Assembly: GCF_048403405.1 (NCBI RefSeq)
Contig: NZ_CP183129.1
Reading direction: 5' to 3' (one strand)
Length of the DNA: 64,000 nucleotides
Source: Escherichia coli
GTDB lineage: Bacteria > Pseudomonadota > Gammaproteobacteria > Enterobacterales > Enterobacteriaceae
Part shown: piece by piece, positions 30,055-62,982 of the stretch
Layout of the letters: every line of letters begins with the position of its first letter
Numbering within the stretch: the stretch's first letter is position 1
The notes under the pieces: model-generated
What the model was told of the DNA's origin: nothing
Database searches by the model: none
Seen by the model: only the letters and a program-made list of their open reading frames with translations
Translations under genes and position numbers: made by a program

Positions 30055-31107
30055 TCAGGGAAGAAAAACTTCACCGGAAAATATTTTTCTGGTTGTCCGA
30101 ATAACAGATGCGCGTAACGTCGTGGCATCCTGACCTTCATTACTTAAATGAACGTCGAGCGCACCACTGGGGTGTTCAATATTGATATTGCCGTATCCTA
30201 CAGAAGGGACGATTTGTCGGGTGACGGTGCCTTCCAATGCACAACTACTGGAAATGGCAATAGCACCGGTTATCGCCAGCGCGCGATGGCAAGAATGCGG
30301 CATAAAATAACGCACATTAATTGCTCCGCCTTTCTGCGCTGGAGAAATAAGCACAGGTTTAGGGATAACCATATTACTGACATCGCCTAAGCCCATTGCT
30401 TTACCCGCTTGTAGACGGATAGATTCAATGCGAGCTAATAATGCTTTGTCGGCATCCAGTTCCATCGGTAATTCATAGCCTGTTTTTCCCAGATATTCAG
30501 CAGGAATAATGACAACTGGCATCGCCATATCGATACAGGTCACCGGGACATCGTCAAAATAATCAATCTGATTATCAGTCGGGAAGACTTTTCCGGTTTT
30601 GGTTCCGGCGGCATTCAGGAAAGTGAGCGCAACCGGTGCGGCAGTACCCGGTACGCCGTCAATTCTGGCGCTACCCTCGTACTCGACAACACCATTTGGC
30701 GTTTGCACATCAGCTTCGATGAACGTACCCGTATTGACGTTGCGGATACGTACGCGGGTAACTGGCGAAGTCGCTGCAATCAAACCATTTTCAATAGCGA
30801 ATGCCCCAACGCCAGACAGCATATTGCCGCAGTTAGGCGTGGTATCGACACGTTGCTCATGGACGATAACTTGAGCAAACAGATAATCGACATCAGCACG
30901 CGGATCGCTGGAACGGCTAATAATGGCGACTTTACTGGTCAGCGGATTACCGCCGCCAATACCGTCAATTTCCAGATCGTTACCGGAACCCATAATTGCC
31001 ATCAATATTTTATCGCGCTGCGTTTGATCTTCGGGTAGATGTTCCGCTAACAGGAACGCGCCCCTCGAGGTTCCACCTCGCATCATCACGCAGGGTATTT
31101 TTTTCAT
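30055..31107 (-). CDS. ybhH: PrpF-family isomerase-like protein YbhH
   Basis: 350-aa ORF. Confidence 0.88.
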   Translation of the reverse strand: MKKIPCVMMRGGTSRGAFLLAEHLPEDQTQRDKILMAIMGSGNDLEIDGIGGGNPLTSKVAIISRSSDPRADVDYLFAQVIVHEQRVDTTPNCGNMLSGVGAFAIENGLIAATSPVTRVRIRNVNTGTFIEADVQTPNGVVEYEGSARIDGVPGTAAPVALTFLNAAGTKTGKVFPTDNQIDYFDDVPVTCIDMAMPVVIIPAEYLGKTGYELPMELDADKALLARIESIRLQAGKAMGLGDVSNMVIPKPVLISPAQKGGAINVRYFMPHSCHRALAITGAIAISSSCALEGTVTRQIVPSVGYGNINIEHPSGALDVHLSNEGQDATTLRASVIRTTRKIFSGEVFLP

Positions 31108-31290
31108 AATAATGCCCTCAATTTAAAAACATAACTTATTGCGATATGGTTACATTAAGGGCAAAGCATCTCTAATGACTTTAGCTCAACGATTAATAAC
31201 ATTTTTTCATTAATTTAAGTTAGCTAAATGCAGTTAAAATTTTTAACGGCCAGTCACCCAAAATCGACGCTTCCATTTTCCGGAGTAATA

Positions 31291-32244
31291 ATGAAGCATG
31301 AATTATCAAGTATGAAGGCATTTGTCATACTGGCAGAGTCCAGTTCATTTAACAATGCCGCTAAATTACTCAATATTACGCAACCTGCATTAACGCGAAG
31401 AATAAAAAAGATGGAGGAAGATTTACATATCCAACTATTTGAGCGTACAACTCGCAAGGTTACGTTAACAAAAGCAGGAAAAAGATTGCTCCCGGAGGCG
31501 CGGGAATTAATAAAGAAATTCGATGAAACGCTTTTTAATATTCGTGATATGAATGCTTATCATCGTGGTATGGTGACATTAGCGTGTATTCCGACCGCAG
31601 TATTTTATTTTTTACCGCTGGCAATCGGTAAATTTAATGAGCTTTATCCCAATATTAAAGTGCGGATTCTGGAACAAGGTACGAATAATTGCATGGAATC
31701 GGTGCTGTGTAACGAATCAGACTTTGGCATAAACATGAACAACGTCACAAATTCATCCATTGATTTTACCCCACTGGTCAACGAGCCGTTCGTGCTGGCC
31801 TGTCGGCGTGACCATCCATTGGCCAAAAAGCAGCTTGTAGAATGGCAGGAGTTAGTGGGTTACAAAATGATTGGCGTACGCTCCTCCAGCGGCAACCGAC
31901 TGTTGATAGAACAACAGCTGGCCGACAAGCCCTGGAAGCTGGACTGGTTTTACGAAGTGCGTCATCTTTCGACGTCATTAGGACTGGTGGAGGCGGGACT
32001 GGGGATTTCGGCGCTTCCTGGTCTGGCAATGCCCCATGCACCCTATTCTTCGATTATTGGTATCCCGCTGGTGGAACCGGTTATACGTCGGACATTGGGG
32101 ATTATTCGCCGCAAAGATGCCGTGCTTTCTCCGGCAGCTGAACGCTTTTTTGCCTTGCTGATTAATTTGTGGACTGACGATAAAGACAATTTGTGGACCA
32201 ATATCGTCGAACGCCAGAGACATGCGTTACAGGAGATAGGTTAA
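31291..32244 (+). CDS. ybhD: LysR-family transcriptional regulator YbhD
   Basis: ORF 31228-32244; start at MKHELSSMKAF (31291) giving 317 aa; N-terminal HTH; divergent from ybhH. Confidence 0.88.
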   Translation: MKHELSSMKAFVILAESSSFNNAAKLLNITQPALTRRIKKMEEDLHIQLFERTTRKVTLTKAGKRLLPEARELIKKFDETLFNIRDMNAYHRGMVTLACIPTAVFYFLPLAIGKFNELYPNIKVRILEQGTNNCMESVLCNESDFGINMNNVTNSSIDFTPLVNEPFVLACRRDHPLAKKQLVEWQELVGYKMIGVRSSSGNRLLIEQQLADKPWKLDWFYEVRHLSTSLGLVEAGLGISALPGLAMPHAPYSSIIGIPLVEPVIRRTLGIIRRKDAVLSPAAERFFALLINLWTDDKDNLWTNIVERQRHALQEIG

Positions 32245-32284
32245 TACACCGGCGCAGAAGAGACTGCGCCGGGTAAATCAGCGG

Positions 32285-58163: not shown

Positions 58164-59732
58164 TTAGCGTGCCGGCTGAGTAGTCGTGGAAGACTGCTCA
58201 AAGTGATAGCGACCGGTTTTCAGGCTGCTTGGGCCGAGGCGTGCAAACTTGAACATTAAGAACAATTCTGCCACCAGGAACAGGGTATACAGGCCGCAAA
58301 TCAGCACCATTGAGAAGATGAGATCGCCTGCGGTCAGTGACGAGTTCGCCACAGCTGTCGGCAGCACTTCACCGATAGCCCACGGTTGGCGGCCATATTC
58401 AGCCACGAACCAGCCCGCTTCTACAGCAATCCACGGCAGCGGAATACCATACAGCGCGGCGCGCAGCAGCCATTTTTTCTCGCCAATGCGGTTGCGGATG
58501 ACACTCCAGAAAGAGAGCGCGATGATTGCCAGCAGCAGGAAGCCACACGCCACCATGATACGGAACGCGAAGTACAGCGGCGCTACACGCGGAATGGAGT
58601 CTTTGGTTGCCTGTTGAATCTGCGCTTCAGTCGCATCAGCCACGTTTGGCGTATAGCGTTTCAGCAGCAGACCGTAACCGAGGTCTTTCTTCATGCTATT
58701 GAACTGGTCACGAACCGCCTGGTCGGTAGAACCAGAACGCAGTTGTTCGAGCAGAGAGTACGCCTTCATCCCGTTACGAATGCGTTCTTCATGCTGCACC
58801 ATCAGTTCTTTCAGGCCGATAACTGGAGTATCCACGGAACGCGTTGCAATGATGCCCAGCGCGTAAGGGATCTGGATCGCAAATTTGTTCGTCTCCTCTT
58901 CCTGATCAGGAATGCCGAACAGAGTAAAGGCAGCAGGCGCAGGTTGCGTTTCCCACTCGGCTTCAATAGCAGCCAGTTTGGTTTTCTGCACGTCGCCCAT
59001 TTCGTAACCAGATTCATCACCCAGAACAATAACAGACAGAACGGCAGCCATACCGAAGCTGGCAGCGATAGCAAAGGAGCGTTTAGCGAAGGCGAAGTCA
59101 CGACCTTTCAGCATATACCATGCGCTGATACCGAGGATGAACATCGCGCCAGTCACATAACCAGACGCTACAGTGTGAACGAATTTCACCTGAGCAACCG
59201 GGTTAAGCACCAGCTCGGAGAAGCTCACCATCTCCATACGCATAGTTTCAAAGTTGAAATCGGACGCGATTGGGTTTTGCATCCAGCCGTTCGCAACCAG
59301 AATCCACAGTGCGGACAGGTTTGAACCGAGCGCCACCAGCCAGGTGACACACATATGCTGAACTTTACCCAGACGATCCCAACCGAAGAAGAACAGACCT
59401 ACAAAGGTGGATTCGAGGAAGAAGGCCATCAGACCTTCGATTGCCAGCGGCGCACCGAAGATATCCCCTACATAGTGGGAATAGTAAGACCAGTTAGTCC
59501 CGAACTGGAACTCCATAGTCAGACCGGTAGCCACACCCAGAGCGAAGTTGATACCAAACAACTTGCCCCAGAACTTGGTCATATCTTTATAAATCTGTTT
59601 GCCGGAAAGGACGTAGACCGTTTCCATAATGGCCAGCAGGAACGCCATACCGAGCGTCAGTGGCACAAAAAGGAAGTGGTACATCGCGGTCAAGGCAAAC
59701 TGTAAGCGCGACAGTTCGACTATATCTAACAT
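58164..59732 (-). CDS. cydA: Cytochrome bd-I ubiquinol oxidase subunit I
   Basis: ORF 58164-59735; start at [12 protein letters not shown] (59732), 522 aa. Confidence 0.96.
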
Positions 59733-60017
59733 CATGACTCCTTGCTCATCGCATGAAGACTCCGAGAGTGAACCCCGTTAGAAAGGGTCACACGCATGCC
59801 CCAATACAAAATTATTTGCTCGCCTCTATCGTTGCCATTTCATCAAAAGAGGAAAAGACAATGATAAAAAAGTTACAAATATGTTAATGAATAAACCAAA
59901 TTGATCCCGTAATTATATTACGCCGCAAAATCCTTACAATAAACAGGTTTTTATTGAGCAAATTTGCATTTTTCGACAGTGATCAATTTATAGCGAAATT
60001 GTCACGATCTCACCAAT

Positions 60018-60031
60018 TTGATCTACGACAA
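60018..60031 (-). promoter_or_regulatory. FNR/CRP-family half-consensus box (TTGATCTACGACAA) in the cydAB control region
   Basis: Matches the TTGAT half of TTGAT-N4-ATCAA; about 285 bp upstream of cydA. Confidence 0.4.
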
Positions 60032-60069
60032 TTTATCGTGTTTTGCAGATTTTTTTCAAGAATTAAAAA

Positions 60070-60083
60070 TTGATTTATATCAA
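60070..60083 (-). promoter_or_regulatory. Perfect FNR consensus box TTGATTTATATCAA in the cydAB control region
   Basis: Exact TTGAT-N4-ATCAA; cydAB is known to be FNR/ArcA controlled with a long leader. Confidence 0.6.
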
Positions 60084-60537
60084 AACCAACCAAATATGTT
60101 AATTATGTATAAACCATAGATCATTGGTGATTTTATTGTTAATTTATTGTGAAATATTTATGCAACACAATTATTACAATGAAAAGGTATAGATAAAAAA
60201 CCAGTGTTTTATTTAACAGAACCGCCTTATCCACTTTTTATAATACCAATTGATTAGATTAGCCAATTTGTTGCTATTTTACATAACATATTTTTATCAA
60301 AGTTAATTGATTGTTGCGTTTATGAGCACCGGCCGTAAGCCCGTTATGTTATTGTTTCATTAGTAATAATCACTTAAATGTATCGATGAAACAGGTATGA
60401 CTTAGCGGGAGTGATTGTTTCTGAGTGAACAGAGACCACTTTCGCCTGATAAATGAAAAATGAGCGATTTTTGCAAGTTAGTTTTTCTATAGCCGAGTAC
60501 GCTCAGCGCCTCGCTTGATTACAATGAGGTTGCTGCT

Positions 60538-61482
60538 ATGAGTCCTGATAATATCAGTTCTGCTGTCAATCGCTTCTCAGGTTGGCCATCTAATGATCCT
60601 CTAAAAACAGATAAAGAATCAATGACATCACCCATGACTGTGCAGGTAATAAAGATGATTGCCGCCATCCTTGACCCACATCGGATAGTCGTTGGAATCG
60701 ATACACTTTATACAACGCAGCGCGAAACATTTACCTCAGAGAGTCAACAGCTCATTGAATCAGCATTGCAAACACTTCATGTGATGAATTTAAATAACCT
60801 GGAAACAAATCTCGATGAGGAAGGTCACTATCTGGCTTTTGGATATAACGTTGACACTCCTGACAGAATAACCGTTTCTGCTTATAATGAAAAAAAGCCT
60901 GGCTGCTATGGCCAATGTCTTTTAATACAGGATGACGAAACAGACTTATTTAACCTGATAAAAGTTAAAATTTTTGAAGCCAGGCATAATTATGTCGCTC
61001 AATTGATGAGCGATCCGGAATTTATGTTCAAATTTAGTTATAGCGCTCAACAAAATAGATTAGAACCTCATCTTCTGGTTCCCACTTATTTCCCTCTAAA
61101 AACAAACGAACCGGTTACGCAAGAGGATGTACTGTTACTTTATCGTTTCTTTAAAATGGATGGTGATTTTAATATATTAACATCAGATGAATACATGAGT
61201 ATCATGACACCTCTGATGAAGTGTGAGCGCAGCATCCACGACCACAACAGGTATGTGACGGGCAAAGATACCCTTCTTCTGGACTATCCTCCTTCTGGTA
61301 ACCAGATATATTTCCATATTTTTCCTGACGAATCAGCAACACTAGTCCTTTATTTTTCAAACAATGACATTGAATGTTTCGTCTTTGAAAGAGATATTCC
61401 GAGCCAGTATCGCTTTTTCAAAATGTTTACCAATCTGGCACTGGTTATTGATCAGTTAACCGATGCCAATCAAATACTTTAA
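60538..61482 (+). CDS. Hypothetical protein, 314 aa, no family recognised (AT-rich islet ORF-A)
   Basis: Intact ORF with GAGG 8 nt upstream of ATG; Ser/Thr/Pro-rich N-terminus without signal peptide; codon usage AT-skewed. Confidence 0.6.
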   Translation: MSPDNISSAVNRFSGWPSNDPLKTDKESMTSPMTVQVIKMIAAILDPHRIVVGIDTLYTTQRETFTSESQQLIESALQTLHVMNLNNLETNLDEEGHYLAFGYNVDTPDRITVSAYNEKKPGCYGQCLLIQDDETDLFNLIKVKIFEARHNYVAQLMSDPEFMFKFSYSAQQNRLEPHLLVPTYFPLKTNEPVTQEDVLLLYRFFKMDGDFNILTSDEYMSIMTPLMKCERSIHDHNRYVTGKDTLLLDYPPSGNQIYFHIFPDESATLVLYFSNNDIECFVFERDIPSQYRFFKMFTNLALVIDQLTDANQIL

Positions 61483-61562
61483 TTTTTATATATTCCCTGT
61501 GGCAAATATTGCTAAACAATGCCCGGGGATTAATTTTTATTACTCACGGAAAGATTTAAATA

Positions 61563-61985
61563 ATGATCCCATCTCAAATCTCTTTCAACACCCTTCCTGT
61601 CAATGCAACATACGCTTCAGAGACAACAGTTGACACACAAAAATTCTCTGACATCCTCTACTCAGCGGGGTGTTCCCTAAAGGATCTGGCTTATTTGAGC
61701 AGATGTCTGGCATCAATACATCCGACTATCGCCAAAAACATTTATGAAACAGAAAATCTCAGCGATCAAAAATTACTACATATTGATTGCCGTAGTACAA
61801 ATGAAATCAAGATAAATATCTTTTTTGGTCAACAACGAGAAGGATTAATTGAAATTAGTTCTGACACAGTCATTTTTTCGATACTGTCTTCATTGATTGA
61901 CTCCACCATTTCTAAATTTCAACACCAAAACCCCGTTAACGGTTCTGTAAATCCTGACCTATTGTATGAGGATTATACTGATTAA
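61563..61985 (+). CDS. Hypothetical small acidic protein, 140 aa, no family recognised (AT-rich islet ORF-B)
   Basis: Intact ORF 80 bp downstream of ORF-A, same strand; about 17 acidic versus 9 basic residues; Ser/Thr-rich N-terminus. Confidence 0.55.
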   Translation: MIPSQISFNTLPVNATYASETTVDTQKFSDILYSAGCSLKDLAYLSRCLASIHPTIAKNIYETENLSDQKLLHIDCRSTNEIKINIFFGQQREGLIEISSDTVIFSILSSLIDSTISKFQHQNPVNGSVNPDLLYEDYTD

Positions 61986-62532
61986 ATCCCTCCTGTCGCG
62001 AAAAATGGCCTGCGTTATTGCCAGACGTAATAAAACTTTTGATTAACGTTTCTCGTACTGGTAGCACCTTCATGTACTTTTCTTTTTTACGAAAAATCAA
62101 AAGAGCTAACAAAGGTCATAATTCGCATGAATCATTAATTATTTGTTATTTTCAACATTATTTTTACATTAAGCAGAGATGAATTGCAGTGAAATTCGAC
62201 TTAACTTTTATGAAATGCATTTACTCATGGCTAAAGCCACGTCACAAAAATGCAAATTAGAAGTAGATCACAAATATCTCAATACATCAAATCAAGTTAA
62301 TTTTAAAAATTTAATATTCATGACATTAGTTGACATAACACACTGAATTATAATGAGAATTTGAAAACACACTTTAAACAATCATTTCCCGAAAGACATT
62401 TTGAAAATAGATCAATTGCAACATTACGGTCAGATAAAGACACTCCTGTGATATTAAACCTGTGCCGTTATGAACGGCCATAAATACGACGTGTGTAACT
62501 TATTTTACTCTCTGTCTTACAAAGGATTACCC

Positions 62533-62982
62533 ATGAAGAAAGCAACACTTGTGATTGGCGTTATTGGCGCGGACTGCCATGCAGTAGGCAATAAAGTTCT
62601 GGACCGCGTTTTTAGCAACCATGGCTTCAGAGTCATTAATCTGGGCGTAATGGTCAGCCAGGACGAATATATTGATGCTGCCATTGAAACTGGTGCTGAC
62701 GCGATTGTCGTCTCCTCTATCTATGGGCATGGCGATATCGATTGTCTGGGCATGCGCGAACGCTGCATTGAGCGTGGGCTGGGTAACATCCTGCTCTATG
62801 TGGGCGGTAACCTGGTGGTCGGAAAACATGACTTCGCTGACGTGGAAACCAAGTTCAAAGAGATGGGATTTGATCGCGTCTTTGCCCCAAGTCATGACTT
62901 AGAAGATGTTTGTCAGCTGATGGCCCACGATATCAACCAACGTCATGACGTTGATACTCGCATTCTTGAAGAGGCAATCTGA
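62533..62982 (+). CDS. glmS: Glutamate mutase sigma (S) subunit / methylaspartate mutase S chain, B12-binding
   Basis: ORF 62470-62982; start at [21 protein letters not shown] (62533) with AAGGA upstream; DxHxxG cobalamin-binding motif (DCHAVG); strongly resembles clostridial MutS/GlmS. Symbol refers to glutamate mutase, not glucosamine-6-phosphate synthase. Confidence 0.85.

What the first reader, a model, noticed from the sequence alone, without database searches (positions are those of the whole stretch)
59736..62532. AT-rich horizontally acquired islet inserted between the cydAB promoter and the glutamate mutase operon
Seen in sequence: about 2.8 kb of markedly AT-rich DNA, with individual non-coding lines near 20-35% G+C by hand count, sits between core cydA and accessory genes of normal G+C. 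It contains the conserved cydAB regulatory region with FNR-type boxes at its left end and long AT-rich non-coding stretches on both sides of ORF-A/ORF-B. Inference: such tracts in enterobacteria are typical H-NS/StpA silencing targets, so the islet genes are probably repressed in standard culture. From memory, K-12 has mngB directly upstream of cydA, so this is a strain-variable junction.
Basis: partly seen in the sequence, partly recalled or inferred. Interest (0 to 1): 0.6.

Follow-up and report, generated by a model that had tools for sequence, protein, structure and literature searches.

The report
AT-rich orphan-gene pair beside cydAB
The AT-rich stretch is real, but it is a composite: the normal control region of the cytochrome bd oxidase genes, then two Escherichia-only genes of unknown function that were inserted long ago between that control region and an old glutamate-fermentation operon, then that operon's own conserved promoter region. 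This is an ordinary kind of genomic islet.

Summary
Observation confirmed. Window 59733-62532 is the lowest-GC part of the 64-kb window (26-43% in 300-bp windows against a 51% window average).

The tract has three parts. (1) 59733 to about 60320 is the core cydAB control region, with FNR and ArcA-type boxes at the same distances from cydA as in K-12, Salmonella, Citrobacter and Pseudescherichia. (2) About 60150/60220 to 62375 is an Escherichia-specific segment carrying ORF-A (314 aa) and ORF-B (140 aa). (3) 62376-62532 is the conserved glm promoter region, which includes a 21-bp element invariant in four genera.

ORF-A and ORF-B look like real genes: dN/dS is 0.4 and 0.2, and the frames stay open in AT-rich DNA. 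They have no homologs outside Escherichia/Shigella and no family, defence, phage or structural match.

It is old, however: it is present next to cydA in E. albertii, which has no glm operon. It carries no mobility signature, and in E. coli it is found only with the glm allele (about 1135 of 5426 genomes).

H-NS silencing is plausible but untested. Function is unknown. Interest is modest.

The parts
58164..59732 (-). cydA (cytochrome bd-I subunit I), the core gene that bounds the tract on the left
   Evidence: RefSeq annotation of the identical strain TUM14771. dN/dS is about 0.01 and nucleotide identity to K-12 is 99.0%.
59733..60320 (-). cydAB control region: core regulatory DNA that is AT-rich in every allele and genus examined
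   Evidence: Aligns with K-12 to 60108, with Salmonella to 60150, with C. koseri to 60111 plus 60178-60217, and with the B2 strain DE17 to 60373. Seven ArcA-PWM hits of at least 11 bits, against 0.71 +/- 0.93 in shuffles. They sit at the same distances from the ATG as the K-12 ArcA ChIP-seq sites.
60070..60083 (.). Perfect FNR-type box, TTGATTTATATCAA, centred 344.5 bp upstream of the cydA ATG
   Evidence: An equivalent box lies at 341.5-344.5 bp in K-12, DE17, E. albertii, Salmonella, C. koseri and P. vulneris.
60018..60031 (.). Second FNR-type box, TTGATCTACGACAA (2 mismatches), centred 292.5 bp upstream of the ATG
   Evidence: Positionally conserved in K-12 (TTGATCGAGAACAA), DE17 and E. albertii.
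59870..59887 (+). Proximal ArcA-type direct-repeat box (20.2 bits), 138-155 bp upstream of the ATG
   Evidence: Corresponds to K-12 ChIP-seq site cydA3, 122-152 bp upstream. Present in Salmonella, C. koseri and P. vulneris.
60096..60179 (.). Middle cluster of ArcA-type boxes (16.2, 14.7, 20.6 and 14.1 bits), 364-447 bp upstream of the ATG
   Evidence: Corresponds to K-12 ChIP-seq site cydA2, 367-418 bp upstream.
60283..60317 (.). Distal ArcA-type boxes (17.3 bits on the - strand, 14.0 bits on the + strand), 551-585 bp upstream of the ATG
   Evidence: Same distance as the strongest K-12 ChIP-seq site, cydA1, at 567-597 bp, although this DNA no longer aligns with K-12 by BLAST.
60151..62375 (+). 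Escherichia-specific segment (about 2.2 kb): the actual insert relative to Salmonella and Pseudescherichia. Its left edge is uncertain (60151-60374) because it overlaps fast-evolving distal cyd control DNA.
   Evidence: No alignment to the Salmonella, C. koseri or P. vulneris cydA-glmS intervals between about 60150/60217 and 62376. Shared at 85% identity with E. albertii through 61588.
60374..60537 (+). ORF-A upstream region (presumed promoter and leader). A GAGG ribosome-binding site lies 8 nt before the ATG.
   Evidence: Conserved only in ORF-A carriers: 99-100% in O157 and E2348/69, 75% in E. albertii, about 36% (unrelated) in DE17 and K-12. Sequence read. No consensus sigma-70 promoter was found here.
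60538..61482 (+). ORF-A: 314-aa acidic soluble orphan protein (pI 4.7, no TM segment)
   Evidence: Annotated as a hypothetical protein in RefSeq. The frame stays open across dS = 0.51 to E. albertii with dN/dS of about 0.43. The longest stop-free run in shuffled DNA is at most 173 codons, against 314 observed. No hit in Pfam, NCBIfam, PADLOC, PHROGs, PDB or phage records. Only self-fragments were found in 1.84 billion representatives.
61563..61985 (+). ORF-B: 140-aa acidic soluble orphan protein (pI 4.65)
   Evidence: Annotated as a hypothetical protein. dN/dS is 0.12-0.31 among E. coli alleles. Homologs occur only in E. coli and Shigella. It is decayed in E. albertii. No family or PDB match.
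61986..62375 (+). AT-rich (70% AT) non-coding stretch after ORF-B, part of the Escherichia-specific segment. It holds one ArcA-like box at 62152-62169 (- strand, 18.7 bits).
   Evidence: No terminator-like site was found after ORF-B.
62376..62532 (+). Conserved glm operon promoter-proximal region. It belongs to the glm operon, not to the insert.
   Evidence: Homology to Salmonella, C. koseri and P. vulneris resumes at 62376-62391. Alignment A3.
62399..62419 (+). Invariant 21-bp element TTTTGAAAATAGATCAATTGC, 114-134 bp upstream of glmS. It is a candidate operator of the glm operon; which factor binds it is unknown.
   Evidence: Identical in the window, O157, Salmonella, C. koseri and P. vulneris, inside otherwise diverged AT-rich DNA.
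62533..62982 (+). glmS (methylaspartate/glutamate mutase subunit S), first gene of the glm operon, which continues beyond the window
   Evidence: RefSeq annotation. Pfam PF02310 in homologs. dN/dS is about 0.05.

Best explanation
The 2.8-kb AT-rich tract is a composite of three units with different histories.

(1) The left ~590 bp (59733 to about 60320) is the ordinary cydAB control region. It carries FNR and ArcA-type sites at conserved distances from cydA. It is AT-rich in all enterobacteria examined and is a documented H-NS target in K-12.

(2) The middle ~2.2 kb (about 60150/60220 to 62375) is an Escherichia-lineage-specific insertion carrying two orphan protein-coding genes, ORF-A and ORF-B. 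They are transcribed away from cydA and towards glmS. The segment entered between the cyd control region and the glm operon before E. coli and E. albertii diverged. Since then it has been inherited as part of one allele of the multi-allelic sucD-cydA interval. The other E. coli alleles (mngRAB as in K-12, a TPR gene as in B2 strains) lack it.

(3) The right ~155 bp is the glm operon's own conserved promoter/operator region.

Shown here: the composition, the boundaries, the synteny, the distribution, the coding constraint and the absence of homologs. Inferred: the insert came by horizontal transfer from an unsampled AT-rich source; like the adjoining cyd promoter it is coated by H-NS/StpA and poorly expressed in standard culture; and the two proteins are soluble cytoplasmic proteins of unknown, non-essential function.
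For: Composition and codon usage.

Allelic structure of the interval in E. coli.

Homology breakpoints: K-12 to 60108, IS1 variant to 60207, B2 to 60373, E. albertii to 61588. Salmonella to 60150, and again from 62376. C. koseri to 60111 and from 62391. P. vulneris to 60110 and from 62391.

Outgroup synteny, with cydA directly next to glmS and no ORF-A/B.

E. albertii carries ORF-A next to cydA without glm.

Co-distribution of ORF-A/B (1134-1138 genomes) and glm (1135 genomes).

Coding evidence: dN/dS of 0.37-0.47 for ORF-A in the informative comparisons and 0.12-0.31 for ORF-B; stop-free frames far beyond shuffled expectation.

Orphan status.

No mobility signatures. No Rfam family.

cyd control elements.

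H-NS and ArcA at the K-12 cydAB promoter: PMC3708157 and PMC3798270, both citing Govantes et al. 2000.

H-NS consensus-motif density is 3.6 per kb in the tract against 1.05 per kb elsewhere.
Against: No donor or homolog was found, so horizontal origin is inferred only from composition and restricted distribution. Loss in other genera cannot be formally excluded.

The left edge of the insert cannot be fixed, because the distal cyd control DNA evolves quickly (70-85% identity even to E. albertii and B2 strains).

No consensus sigma-70 promoter was detected upstream of ORF-A, and no terminator after ORF-B, so the transcription units are unknown.

No expression or H-NS occupancy data for this allele were found in the literature searched.

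dN/dS of about 0.4 for ORF-A is only moderate constraint, and ORF-A is frameshifted in the E. albertii type strain, so the gene is dispensable in at least one lineage.
Confidence: 0.7

Rival explanations
1. ORF-A/ORF-B are ancestral residents of the cydA-glmS intergenic region in Enterobacteriaceae that were lost in Salmonella, Citrobacter and Pseudescherichia and kept only in Escherichia. On this reading there was no horizontal insertion.
For: The locus is prone to loss and replacement: glm is lost in K-12-type, B2-type and E. albertii alleles, and ORF-B is decayed in E. albertii. Outgroup intergenic regions are long (848-1216 bp) and AT-rich, so they could hold decayed remnants.
Against: No trace of either protein appears in any other genus among 5.8 billion or 1.84 billion proteins. 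The window shows no alignment to the central part of the outgroup intergenic regions. GC3 of 34-36% is far below that of neighbouring genes of the same age at the same locus. At least three independent losses would be required.
Confidence: 0.12
2. The two ORFs are not functional genes. They are chance or decaying open frames in fast-evolving AT-rich spacer DNA whose real role is regulatory: an extended H-NS nucleation platform that insulates the cydAB and glm promoters from each other.
For: No homologs, no domains and low AF2 confidence (pLDDT 35-38). ORF-A dN/dS is only about 0.4, and 1.85 in one very close pair that rests on 8 differences. ORF-A is frameshifted and ORF-B decayed in E. albertii. 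No recognisable promoter.
Against: A 314-codon frame is kept open in 62% AT DNA across dS = 0.5, and in more than 1100 E. coli genomes with up to 10% amino-acid divergence. Shuffled DNA gives at most 173 stop-free codons. dN/dS is consistently below 0.5 for ORF-A and 0.12-0.31 for ORF-B. A good Shine-Dalgarno sequence precedes ORF-A. Salmonella and Pseudescherichia manage with 0.85-1.2 kb of spacer and no ORFs.
Confidence: 0.1
3. ORF-A/ORF-B encode a functional two-gene module of a known mobile kind, such as a toxin-antitoxin pair, an anti-phage defence system, or a type III secreted effector with its chaperone, brought in by a phage or plasmid.
For: Two adjacent co-oriented small genes, both acidic. 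The N-termini are rich in Ser/Thr/Asn/Pro/Gln (14-15 of the first 30 residues), as in many T3SS substrates. O157, E2348/69 and E. albertii, which carry the module, are T3SS-positive lineages (general knowledge, not tested here).
Against: No PADLOC, PHROGs, Pfam, NCBIfam or PDB match. No phage or true plasmid copy: the three 'plasmid' hits are 0.7-4.9 Mb chromosome-sized records. ORF-A survives without ORF-B in E. albertii, so they are not an obligate pair. The genes are 80 bp apart, not overlapping. The module is present in many genomes of non-pathogenic origin.
Confidence: 0.06

Closest known systems
Xenogeneically silenced AT-rich islets of enterobacteria (H-NS/StpA targets), small 'genomic islets' that lack mobility genes
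   Same: Low GC (37-38% against 51%), atypical codon usage, lineage-restricted orphan genes, long AT-rich flanks, enrichment of the H-NS consensus motif, and a location next to a promoter already known to be H-NS repressed in K-12 (PMC3708157).
   Different: H-NS occupancy and de-repression have not been shown for this allele. The islet is old (shared with E. albertii) rather than strain-specific, and it is genetically locked to one allele of a larger variable interval.
The K-12 cydAB control region (FNR, ArcA and H-NS interplay; Cotter 1997 and Govantes 2000, as cited in PMC3798270)
   Same: Two FNR boxes and three groups of ArcA-type boxes lie at the same distances from the cydA start codon. 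The region is AT-rich in both (33.2% GC over the 805-bp intergenic region here, 36.6% over the 846-bp one in K-12).
   Different: The sequence is only 75% identical to K-12 over the first 420 bp upstream, although cydA itself is 99% identical. Beyond 60108 it no longer aligns. The divergent neighbour is ORF-A instead of the convergent mngB.
Glutamate-fermentation (methylaspartate/mesaconate pathway) gene cluster of E. coli O157:H7 and other enterobacteria (Kronen and Berg 2015, PMC4682846)
   Same: This is the same cluster: glmS-glmL-glmE-MAL-AtuA-DUF4387-symporter-FumD-cobO-LysR lies immediately to the right.
   Different: That paper does not mention the two upstream orphan genes or the chromosomal setting. 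ORF-A/B are not part of the cluster in Salmonella, Citrobacter or Pseudescherichia.

Membership tests
Horizontally acquired AT-rich islet (xenogeneic DNA) | Base composition and codon usage clearly different from the host core genome | tested here: met
   ORF-A is 38.2% GC (GC3 35.6%) and ORF-B is 36.9% GC (GC3 34.0%), against 48-54% for core genes. They have the lowest CAI-like values of 28 genes.
Horizontally acquired AT-rich islet (xenogeneic DNA) | Absent from the same locus in related taxa; restricted phylogenetic distribution | tested here: met
   cydA and glmS are adjacent without ORF-A/B in Salmonella and Pseudescherichia; C. koseri has mngBAR there instead. Homologs occur only in E. 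coli, Shigella and E. albertii.
Horizontally acquired AT-rich islet (xenogeneic DNA) | Identifiable donor, or mobility signatures (integrase, IS, tRNA target, flanking direct repeats) | tested here: not met
   No meaningful flanking repeats. No transposase or integrase ORF. No phage or true plasmid homolog. This feature is typical of classical genomic islands but is not required for small islets.
H-NS/StpA-silenced locus | H-NS occupancy in vivo and de-repression in hns/stpA mutants | not testable with these tools
   Only indirect indicators are available: 62-70% AT over 2.8 kb and H-NS motif density 3.4 times that of the rest of the window. No ChIP or RNA-seq data for this allele were found.
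cydAB control region (FNR/ArcA-regulated) | FNR boxes (TTGAT-N4-ATCAA) upstream of cydA at the K-12 positions | tested here: met
   Boxes centred 292.5 and 344.5 bp upstream, against 289.5 and 341.5 bp in K-12. The distal box is conserved in three other genera.
cydAB control region (FNR/ArcA-regulated) | ArcA direct-repeat boxes at the positions bound in K-12 ChIP-seq | tested here: met
   PWM built from 112 published boxes, with the cydA boxes left out. Hits at 138-155, 364-447 and 551-585 bp upstream, against K-12 sites at 122-152, 367-418 and 567-597 bp. Seven hits against 0.71 +/- 0.93 in shuffles. Actual binding was not tested.
Anti-phage defence system or toxin-antitoxin module | Match to a known defence or TA protein family | tested here: not met
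   PADLOC returned no families at E <= 1. Pfam and NCBIfam gave nothing significant.
Type III secretion effector/chaperone pair | Homology to known effectors or chaperones, or linkage to T3SS or exchangeable effector loci | tested here: not met
   No Pfam, PDB or PHROG match. The locus is between cydA and glmS, not in a prophage or the LEE. N-terminal composition is suggestive only.
Type III secretion effector/chaperone pair | T3SS-dependent secretion or translocation | not testable with these tools
   Needs a secretion assay.
Glutamate-fermentation (methylaspartate pathway) cluster | Gene is conserved within the cluster across species that carry it | tested here: not met
   ORF-A/B are absent upstream of glmS in Salmonella, C. 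koseri and P. vulneris. ORF-A persists in E. albertii without the cluster.

The most novel reading that the evidence does not exclude
ORF-A and ORF-B could be a genuinely new, Escherichia-specific protein pair whose expression is wired into the oxygen-responsive ArcA/FNR/H-NS hub that they share divergently with cydAB. One possibility is modulators of the switch between microaerobic respiration and anaerobic glutamate fermentation. Another is previously unrecognised type III secretion substrates, as hinted by their Ser/Thr/Asn/Pro-rich N-termini. Nothing in the evidence excludes a specific function: both frames are under purifying selection and are kept in more than 1100 sequenced E. coli genomes.
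Probability: 0.07. Interest if true: 0.6.

Novelty: new member of a known kind. Interest (0 to 1): 0.3.

Why it matters
The finding itself has limited importance. It is a small, old, AT-rich orphan-gene islet of the kind common in enterobacterial genomes, already annotated as two hypothetical proteins in over a thousand genomes.

The value lies in the context it reveals:

- The sucD-cydA interval is a multi-allelic replacement hotspot.
- The glutamate-fermentation operon is an old resident of that interval across genera, not a pathogen-specific island.
- About 40% of E. coli genomes carry a cydAB control region that differs by about 25% from the textbook K-12 one while keeping the FNR and ArcA site geometry.

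That gives a natural experiment on how much sequence of a classic H-NS/ArcA/FNR-controlled promoter can change without moving its sites. It also cautions against extrapolating K-12 cydAB regulation to O157, EPEC and ExPEC strains.

Tried and rejected
- Rfam scan of 59000-63000 at E <= 1: nothing.
- Pfam, NCBIfam, PADLOC and PHROGs for both ORFs: nothing significant. The best result was phrog_24553 at E = 0.056 for ORF-B.
- Word-indexed search of 5.8 billion proteins and full HMMER search of 1.84 billion representatives: only Escherichia/Shigella copies and fragments. Two apparently distant ORF-B hits (P0046, P0047) turned out to be frameshifted copies.
- AlphaFold2 on ORF-A (single sequence) and ORF-B (7-sequence alignment): pLDDT 35.6 and 38.3. 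These are too poor for a fold search, so none was run.
- PDB profile searches: nothing.
- hhalign of ORF-A against ORF-B: no relationship, probability 0.9%.
- tblastn against phage and plasmid collections: none. The three 'plasmid' hits are chromosome-sized records.
- Search for flanking repeats or mobility scars: only chance-level matches.
- Promoter and terminator consensus scans: counts no higher than in shuffles.
- Literature searches by guessed O157 (ECs07xx, Z089x) and E2348/69 locus tags, and in the supplements of an EHEC H-NS ChIP paper: no hits. No expression or H-NS data could be brought in.
- My interim idea that ORF-A/B was the older resident and glm the newcomer, based on E. albertii alone, was rejected once the Salmonella, Citrobacter and Pseudescherichia contexts showed that glm next to cydA is the widespread state.
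Full report
**1.
In 300-bp windows, GC drops from 0.49-0.59 over cydA to 0.26-0.43 between 59800 and 62500, then rises again to 0.48-0.55 in glmS. This is the lowest-GC part of the whole 64-kb window (window average 51.2%). The only other 1-kb windows below 42% GC lie at 30.7-32 kb, over the ybhD-type LysR gene.

The tract contains two co-oriented ORFs, ORF-A (60538-61482, 314 aa) and ORF-B (61563-61985, 140 aa). They are separated by 80 bp and flanked by intergenic stretches of 805 bp and 547 bp with 30-33% GC. ORF-A and ORF-B have 38.2% and 36.9% GC, GC3 of 35.6% and 34.0%, and the lowest codon-adaptation values of the 28 genes scored around the locus.

**2. The locus.**
The window is identical over this region to E. 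coli TUM14771. In that genome the order is tol-pal, ybgC, ybgE-cydX-cydB-cydA on the minus strand. The plus strand then carries ORF-A, ORF-B, glmS, glmL, glmE, methylaspartate ammonia-lyase, AtuA-family, DUF4387, a dicarboxylate/amino-acid symporter, a class I fumarase and cobO. A LysR-type regulator and sucD follow on the minus strand.

The sucD-cydA interval is multi-allelic in E. coli:
- B2-type DE17 has a single TPR gene.
- One variant has an IS1.
- 1135 of 5426 complete genomes (21%) have the arrangement seen here.

All alleles converge again about 100 bp before sucD. The variable interval is therefore about 14 kb, of which only the left 3.9 kb lies in the window.

Within E. coli, ORF-A/B (1134-1138 genomes) and the glm genes (1135 genomes) are essentially perfectly co-distributed.

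**3. The left part is the cydAB control region, not foreign DNA.**
Alignments with the other alleles end at 60108 (K-12), 60207 (IS1 variant) and 60373 (B2). Alignments with other genera end at 60150 (Salmonella), 60111 plus a 60178-60217 patch (C. koseri) and 60110 (P. vulneris).

A perfect FNR box (TTGATTTATATCAA, 60070-60083) and a second FNR-type box (60018-60031) lie 344.5 and 292.5 bp upstream of the cydA start. The K-12 values are 341.5 and 289.5 bp.

I built an ArcA position-weight matrix from 112 of the published ArcA boxes (Park et al. 2013, PMC3798270, Table S3), leaving the three cydA boxes out. It gives seven hits of at least 11 bits in the 805-bp intergenic region, against 0.71 +/- 0.93 in shuffles. 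The hits group at 138-155, 364-447 and 551-585 bp upstream of the ATG. The three K-12 ArcA ChIP-seq regions lie 122-152, 367-418 and 567-597 bp upstream. The same geometry is seen in E. albertii, DE17, Salmonella, C. koseri and P. vulneris (the printed P. vulneris distances need 33 subtracted).

So roughly 59733-60320 is core regulatory DNA. It is AT-rich everywhere: 36.6% GC in K-12's own cydA-mngB spacer and 35-37% in the outgroups. In K-12 this promoter is known to be repressed by H-NS, with ArcA acting as an anti-repressor (Govantes et al. 2000, as cited in PMC3708157 and PMC3798270).

**4. The right ~155 bp belong to the glm operon.**
Homology with Salmonella, C. koseri and P. vulneris resumes at 62376-62391 and continues into glmS. 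Inside otherwise diverged AT-rich DNA, a 21-bp element (TTTTGAAAATAGATCAATTGC, 62399-62419) is invariant in all four genera. It is most simply read as an operator of the glm operon. Which factor binds it is unknown.

**5. The middle ~2.2 kb is an Escherichia-specific insertion.**
In Salmonella enterica (L018) and Pseudescherichia vulneris (L019), cydA and glmS are direct divergent neighbours separated by 1216 and 848 bp, with no ORF-A/B. In Citrobacter koseri (L017), mngB-mngA-mngR sits between them. The glm operon is therefore an old resident of this locus across genera, and ORF-A/B are extra DNA between the cyd control region and the glm promoter.

The insertion is not recent, however. Escherichia albertii carries a 65%-identical ORF-A at exactly the same place next to cydA. 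There the glm operon is absent and ORF-B is reduced to fragments. ORF-A is intact in one strain (L006) and frameshifted in the type strain (L013). The tract has no IS, integrase, tRNA or meaningful flanking repeats. No phage or true plasmid copy exists.

**6. Are the ORFs genes?**
ORF-A remains open across dS = 0.51 between E. coli and E. albertii, with dN/dS of about 0.43. Among the more diverged E. coli pairs, dN/dS is 0.37-0.60. ORF-B has dN/dS of 0.12-0.31. For comparison, glmS is about 0.05 and cydA about 0.01.

Shuffled DNA of the same composition gives stop-free runs of at most 173 codons against the 314 of ORF-A, and at most 126 against the 140 of ORF-B. ORF-A has a GAGG ribosome-binding site 8 nt before its ATG. 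I conclude that both are real, fast-evolving, weakly to moderately constrained protein-coding genes.

**7. What do they encode?**
This is unknown. Neither has a significant Pfam, NCBIfam, PADLOC or PHROGs match or any PDB relative. A search of 5.8 billion clustered proteins and a full HMMER pass over 1.84 billion representatives returned only Escherichia/Shigella copies and fragments. AlphaFold2 models were of low confidence (pLDDT 35.6 and 38.3), so fold searches would be meaningless. The two proteins are not detectably related to each other.

Both are acidic (pI about 4.7) and soluble, without TM segments, and have Ser/Thr/Asn/Pro/Gln-rich N-termini. That last feature is compatible with type III secretion substrates, but it is not evidence for them.

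**8. Mechanism, with shown and inferred steps marked.**
- Shown: the composite structure, the boundaries, the synteny, the age, the distribution, the coding constraint, the orphan status, and the conserved FNR/ArcA geometry.
- Inferred: acquisition from an unsampled AT-rich donor in the Escherichia ancestor.
- Inferred: continuous H-NS/StpA coating from the cyd promoter across the insert to the glm promoter. The tract is 62-70% AT. The H-NS consensus motif occurs at 3.6 per kb against 1.05 per kb elsewhere, and at 9.6 per kb in the cyd control part.
- Inferred as a consequence: low expression in standard culture.

No ChIP or transcriptome data for this allele could be found.

**9. Comparison with the known.**
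The cluster to the right is the glutamate-fermentation cluster described for O157:H7 by Kronen and Berg (PMC4682846). That paper does not mention the two upstream ORFs or the chromosomal setting. The tract as a whole fits the known category of small AT-rich orphan-gene islets. It fails the tests for a classical mobile genomic island, a defence or TA module, a T3SS effector locus, and membership of the glm cluster itself (see the membership table).

**10. Verdict.**
H-NS silencing remains untested. The novelty is low (a new, uncharacterised member of a familiar kind), and the interest is modest.

The more noteworthy by-product concerns the cydAB control region. The K-12-type allele is as different from this strain's (75% identity over 420 bp) as Salmonella's is (76%), even though cydA itself is 99% identical, and there is a sharp breakpoint 75 bp upstream of the start codon.

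Noticed in passing
window 59807-60108, compared with K-12 locus L002 8308-8606: The K-12 (mng-linked) allele of the cydAB control region is only 75% identical to this strain's over the first 420 bp upstream of cydA. Segment values are 49%, 88% and 69%, and there is a sharp breakpoint at 59807, 75 bp from the ATG. cydA coding DNA is 99.0% identical. The window's allele is 92.6% identical to E. albertii's and 96% to the B2 strain's, while K-12's is about equally far (75-77%) from E. coli, E. albertii, Citrobacter and Salmonella. About 3180 of 5426 genomes fall in the K-12-type identity band. This suggests an old imported or replaced promoter segment linked to mngRAB, with FNR/ArcA site positions nevertheless preserved.
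   Followed up: partly
L014 (E. coli O127:H6 E2348/69 derivative), 3201-9387: Mosaic interval: cydA - ORF-A - ORF-B - glmS - ISEc13 - truncated mngA - mngR - sucD. Pieces of the glm allele and the mng allele coexist, joined at an IS4-family element. This implies either an ancestor carrying both operons in tandem or IS-associated recombination between alleles.
   Followed up: no
L017 (Citrobacter koseri), 1-7450: C. koseri has both operons in the interval, in the order cydA - mngB - mngA - mngR - glmS... The K-12 arrangement looks like this one minus the glm cluster.
   Followed up: no
window 62399-62419: A 21-bp element, TTTTGAAAATAGATCAATTGC, 114-134 bp upstream of glmS, is invariant in E. 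coli, Salmonella, C. koseri and P. vulneris within otherwise diverged AT-rich DNA. It contains TTGAA-N5-ATCAA, an FNR/CRP-like inverted repeat with non-canonical spacing. It is a candidate operator of the glutamate-fermentation operon.
   Followed up: partly
window 62152-62169 (- strand): A strong ArcA-PWM match (18.7 bits, ATGTAAAAATAATGTTGA) lies in the ORF-B/glmS spacer, inside the Escherichia-specific segment. It could be chance in AT-rich DNA, or a link between ArcA and the glm or ORF-A/B genes.
   Followed up: no
L003 (B2 strain DE17), 9080-9181: A weak remnant of glmS (residues 69-102, 51% identity, E = 2e-4) lies in the 1.3-kb cydA-TPR spacer of the B2-type allele. This hints that the allele derives from a glm-bearing ancestor by deletion.
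   Followed up: partly
L006 9907-10683 (E. albertii): E. albertii has a 258-aa gene with a signal-peptide-like N-terminus and no Pfam hit on record between the decayed ORF-B and sucD. It is absent from the type-strain locus L013, which is about 475 bp shorter there. This is yet another allele of the interval.
   Followed up: no
L011 and L012 (genome-contig hits): Contigs with 99-100% identical ORF-A are filed under MAGs named Collinsella sp. and Citrobacter sp. These are almost certainly E. coli contigs mis-binned into those MAGs.
   Followed up: no
L001 22947-23264 (outside the window, within the glm operon): The DUF4387 gene inside the otherwise 49-55% GC glm operon has only 39.0% GC (GC3 34.0%), as low as ORF-A/B.
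   Followed up: no
window 30700-32250: This is the only other stretch of the window with 1-kb GC below 42%. It covers the divergent promoter region and the 5' part of a LysR-type regulator gene (31228-32244, ybhD-like) next to a PrpF-family gene.
   Followed up: no
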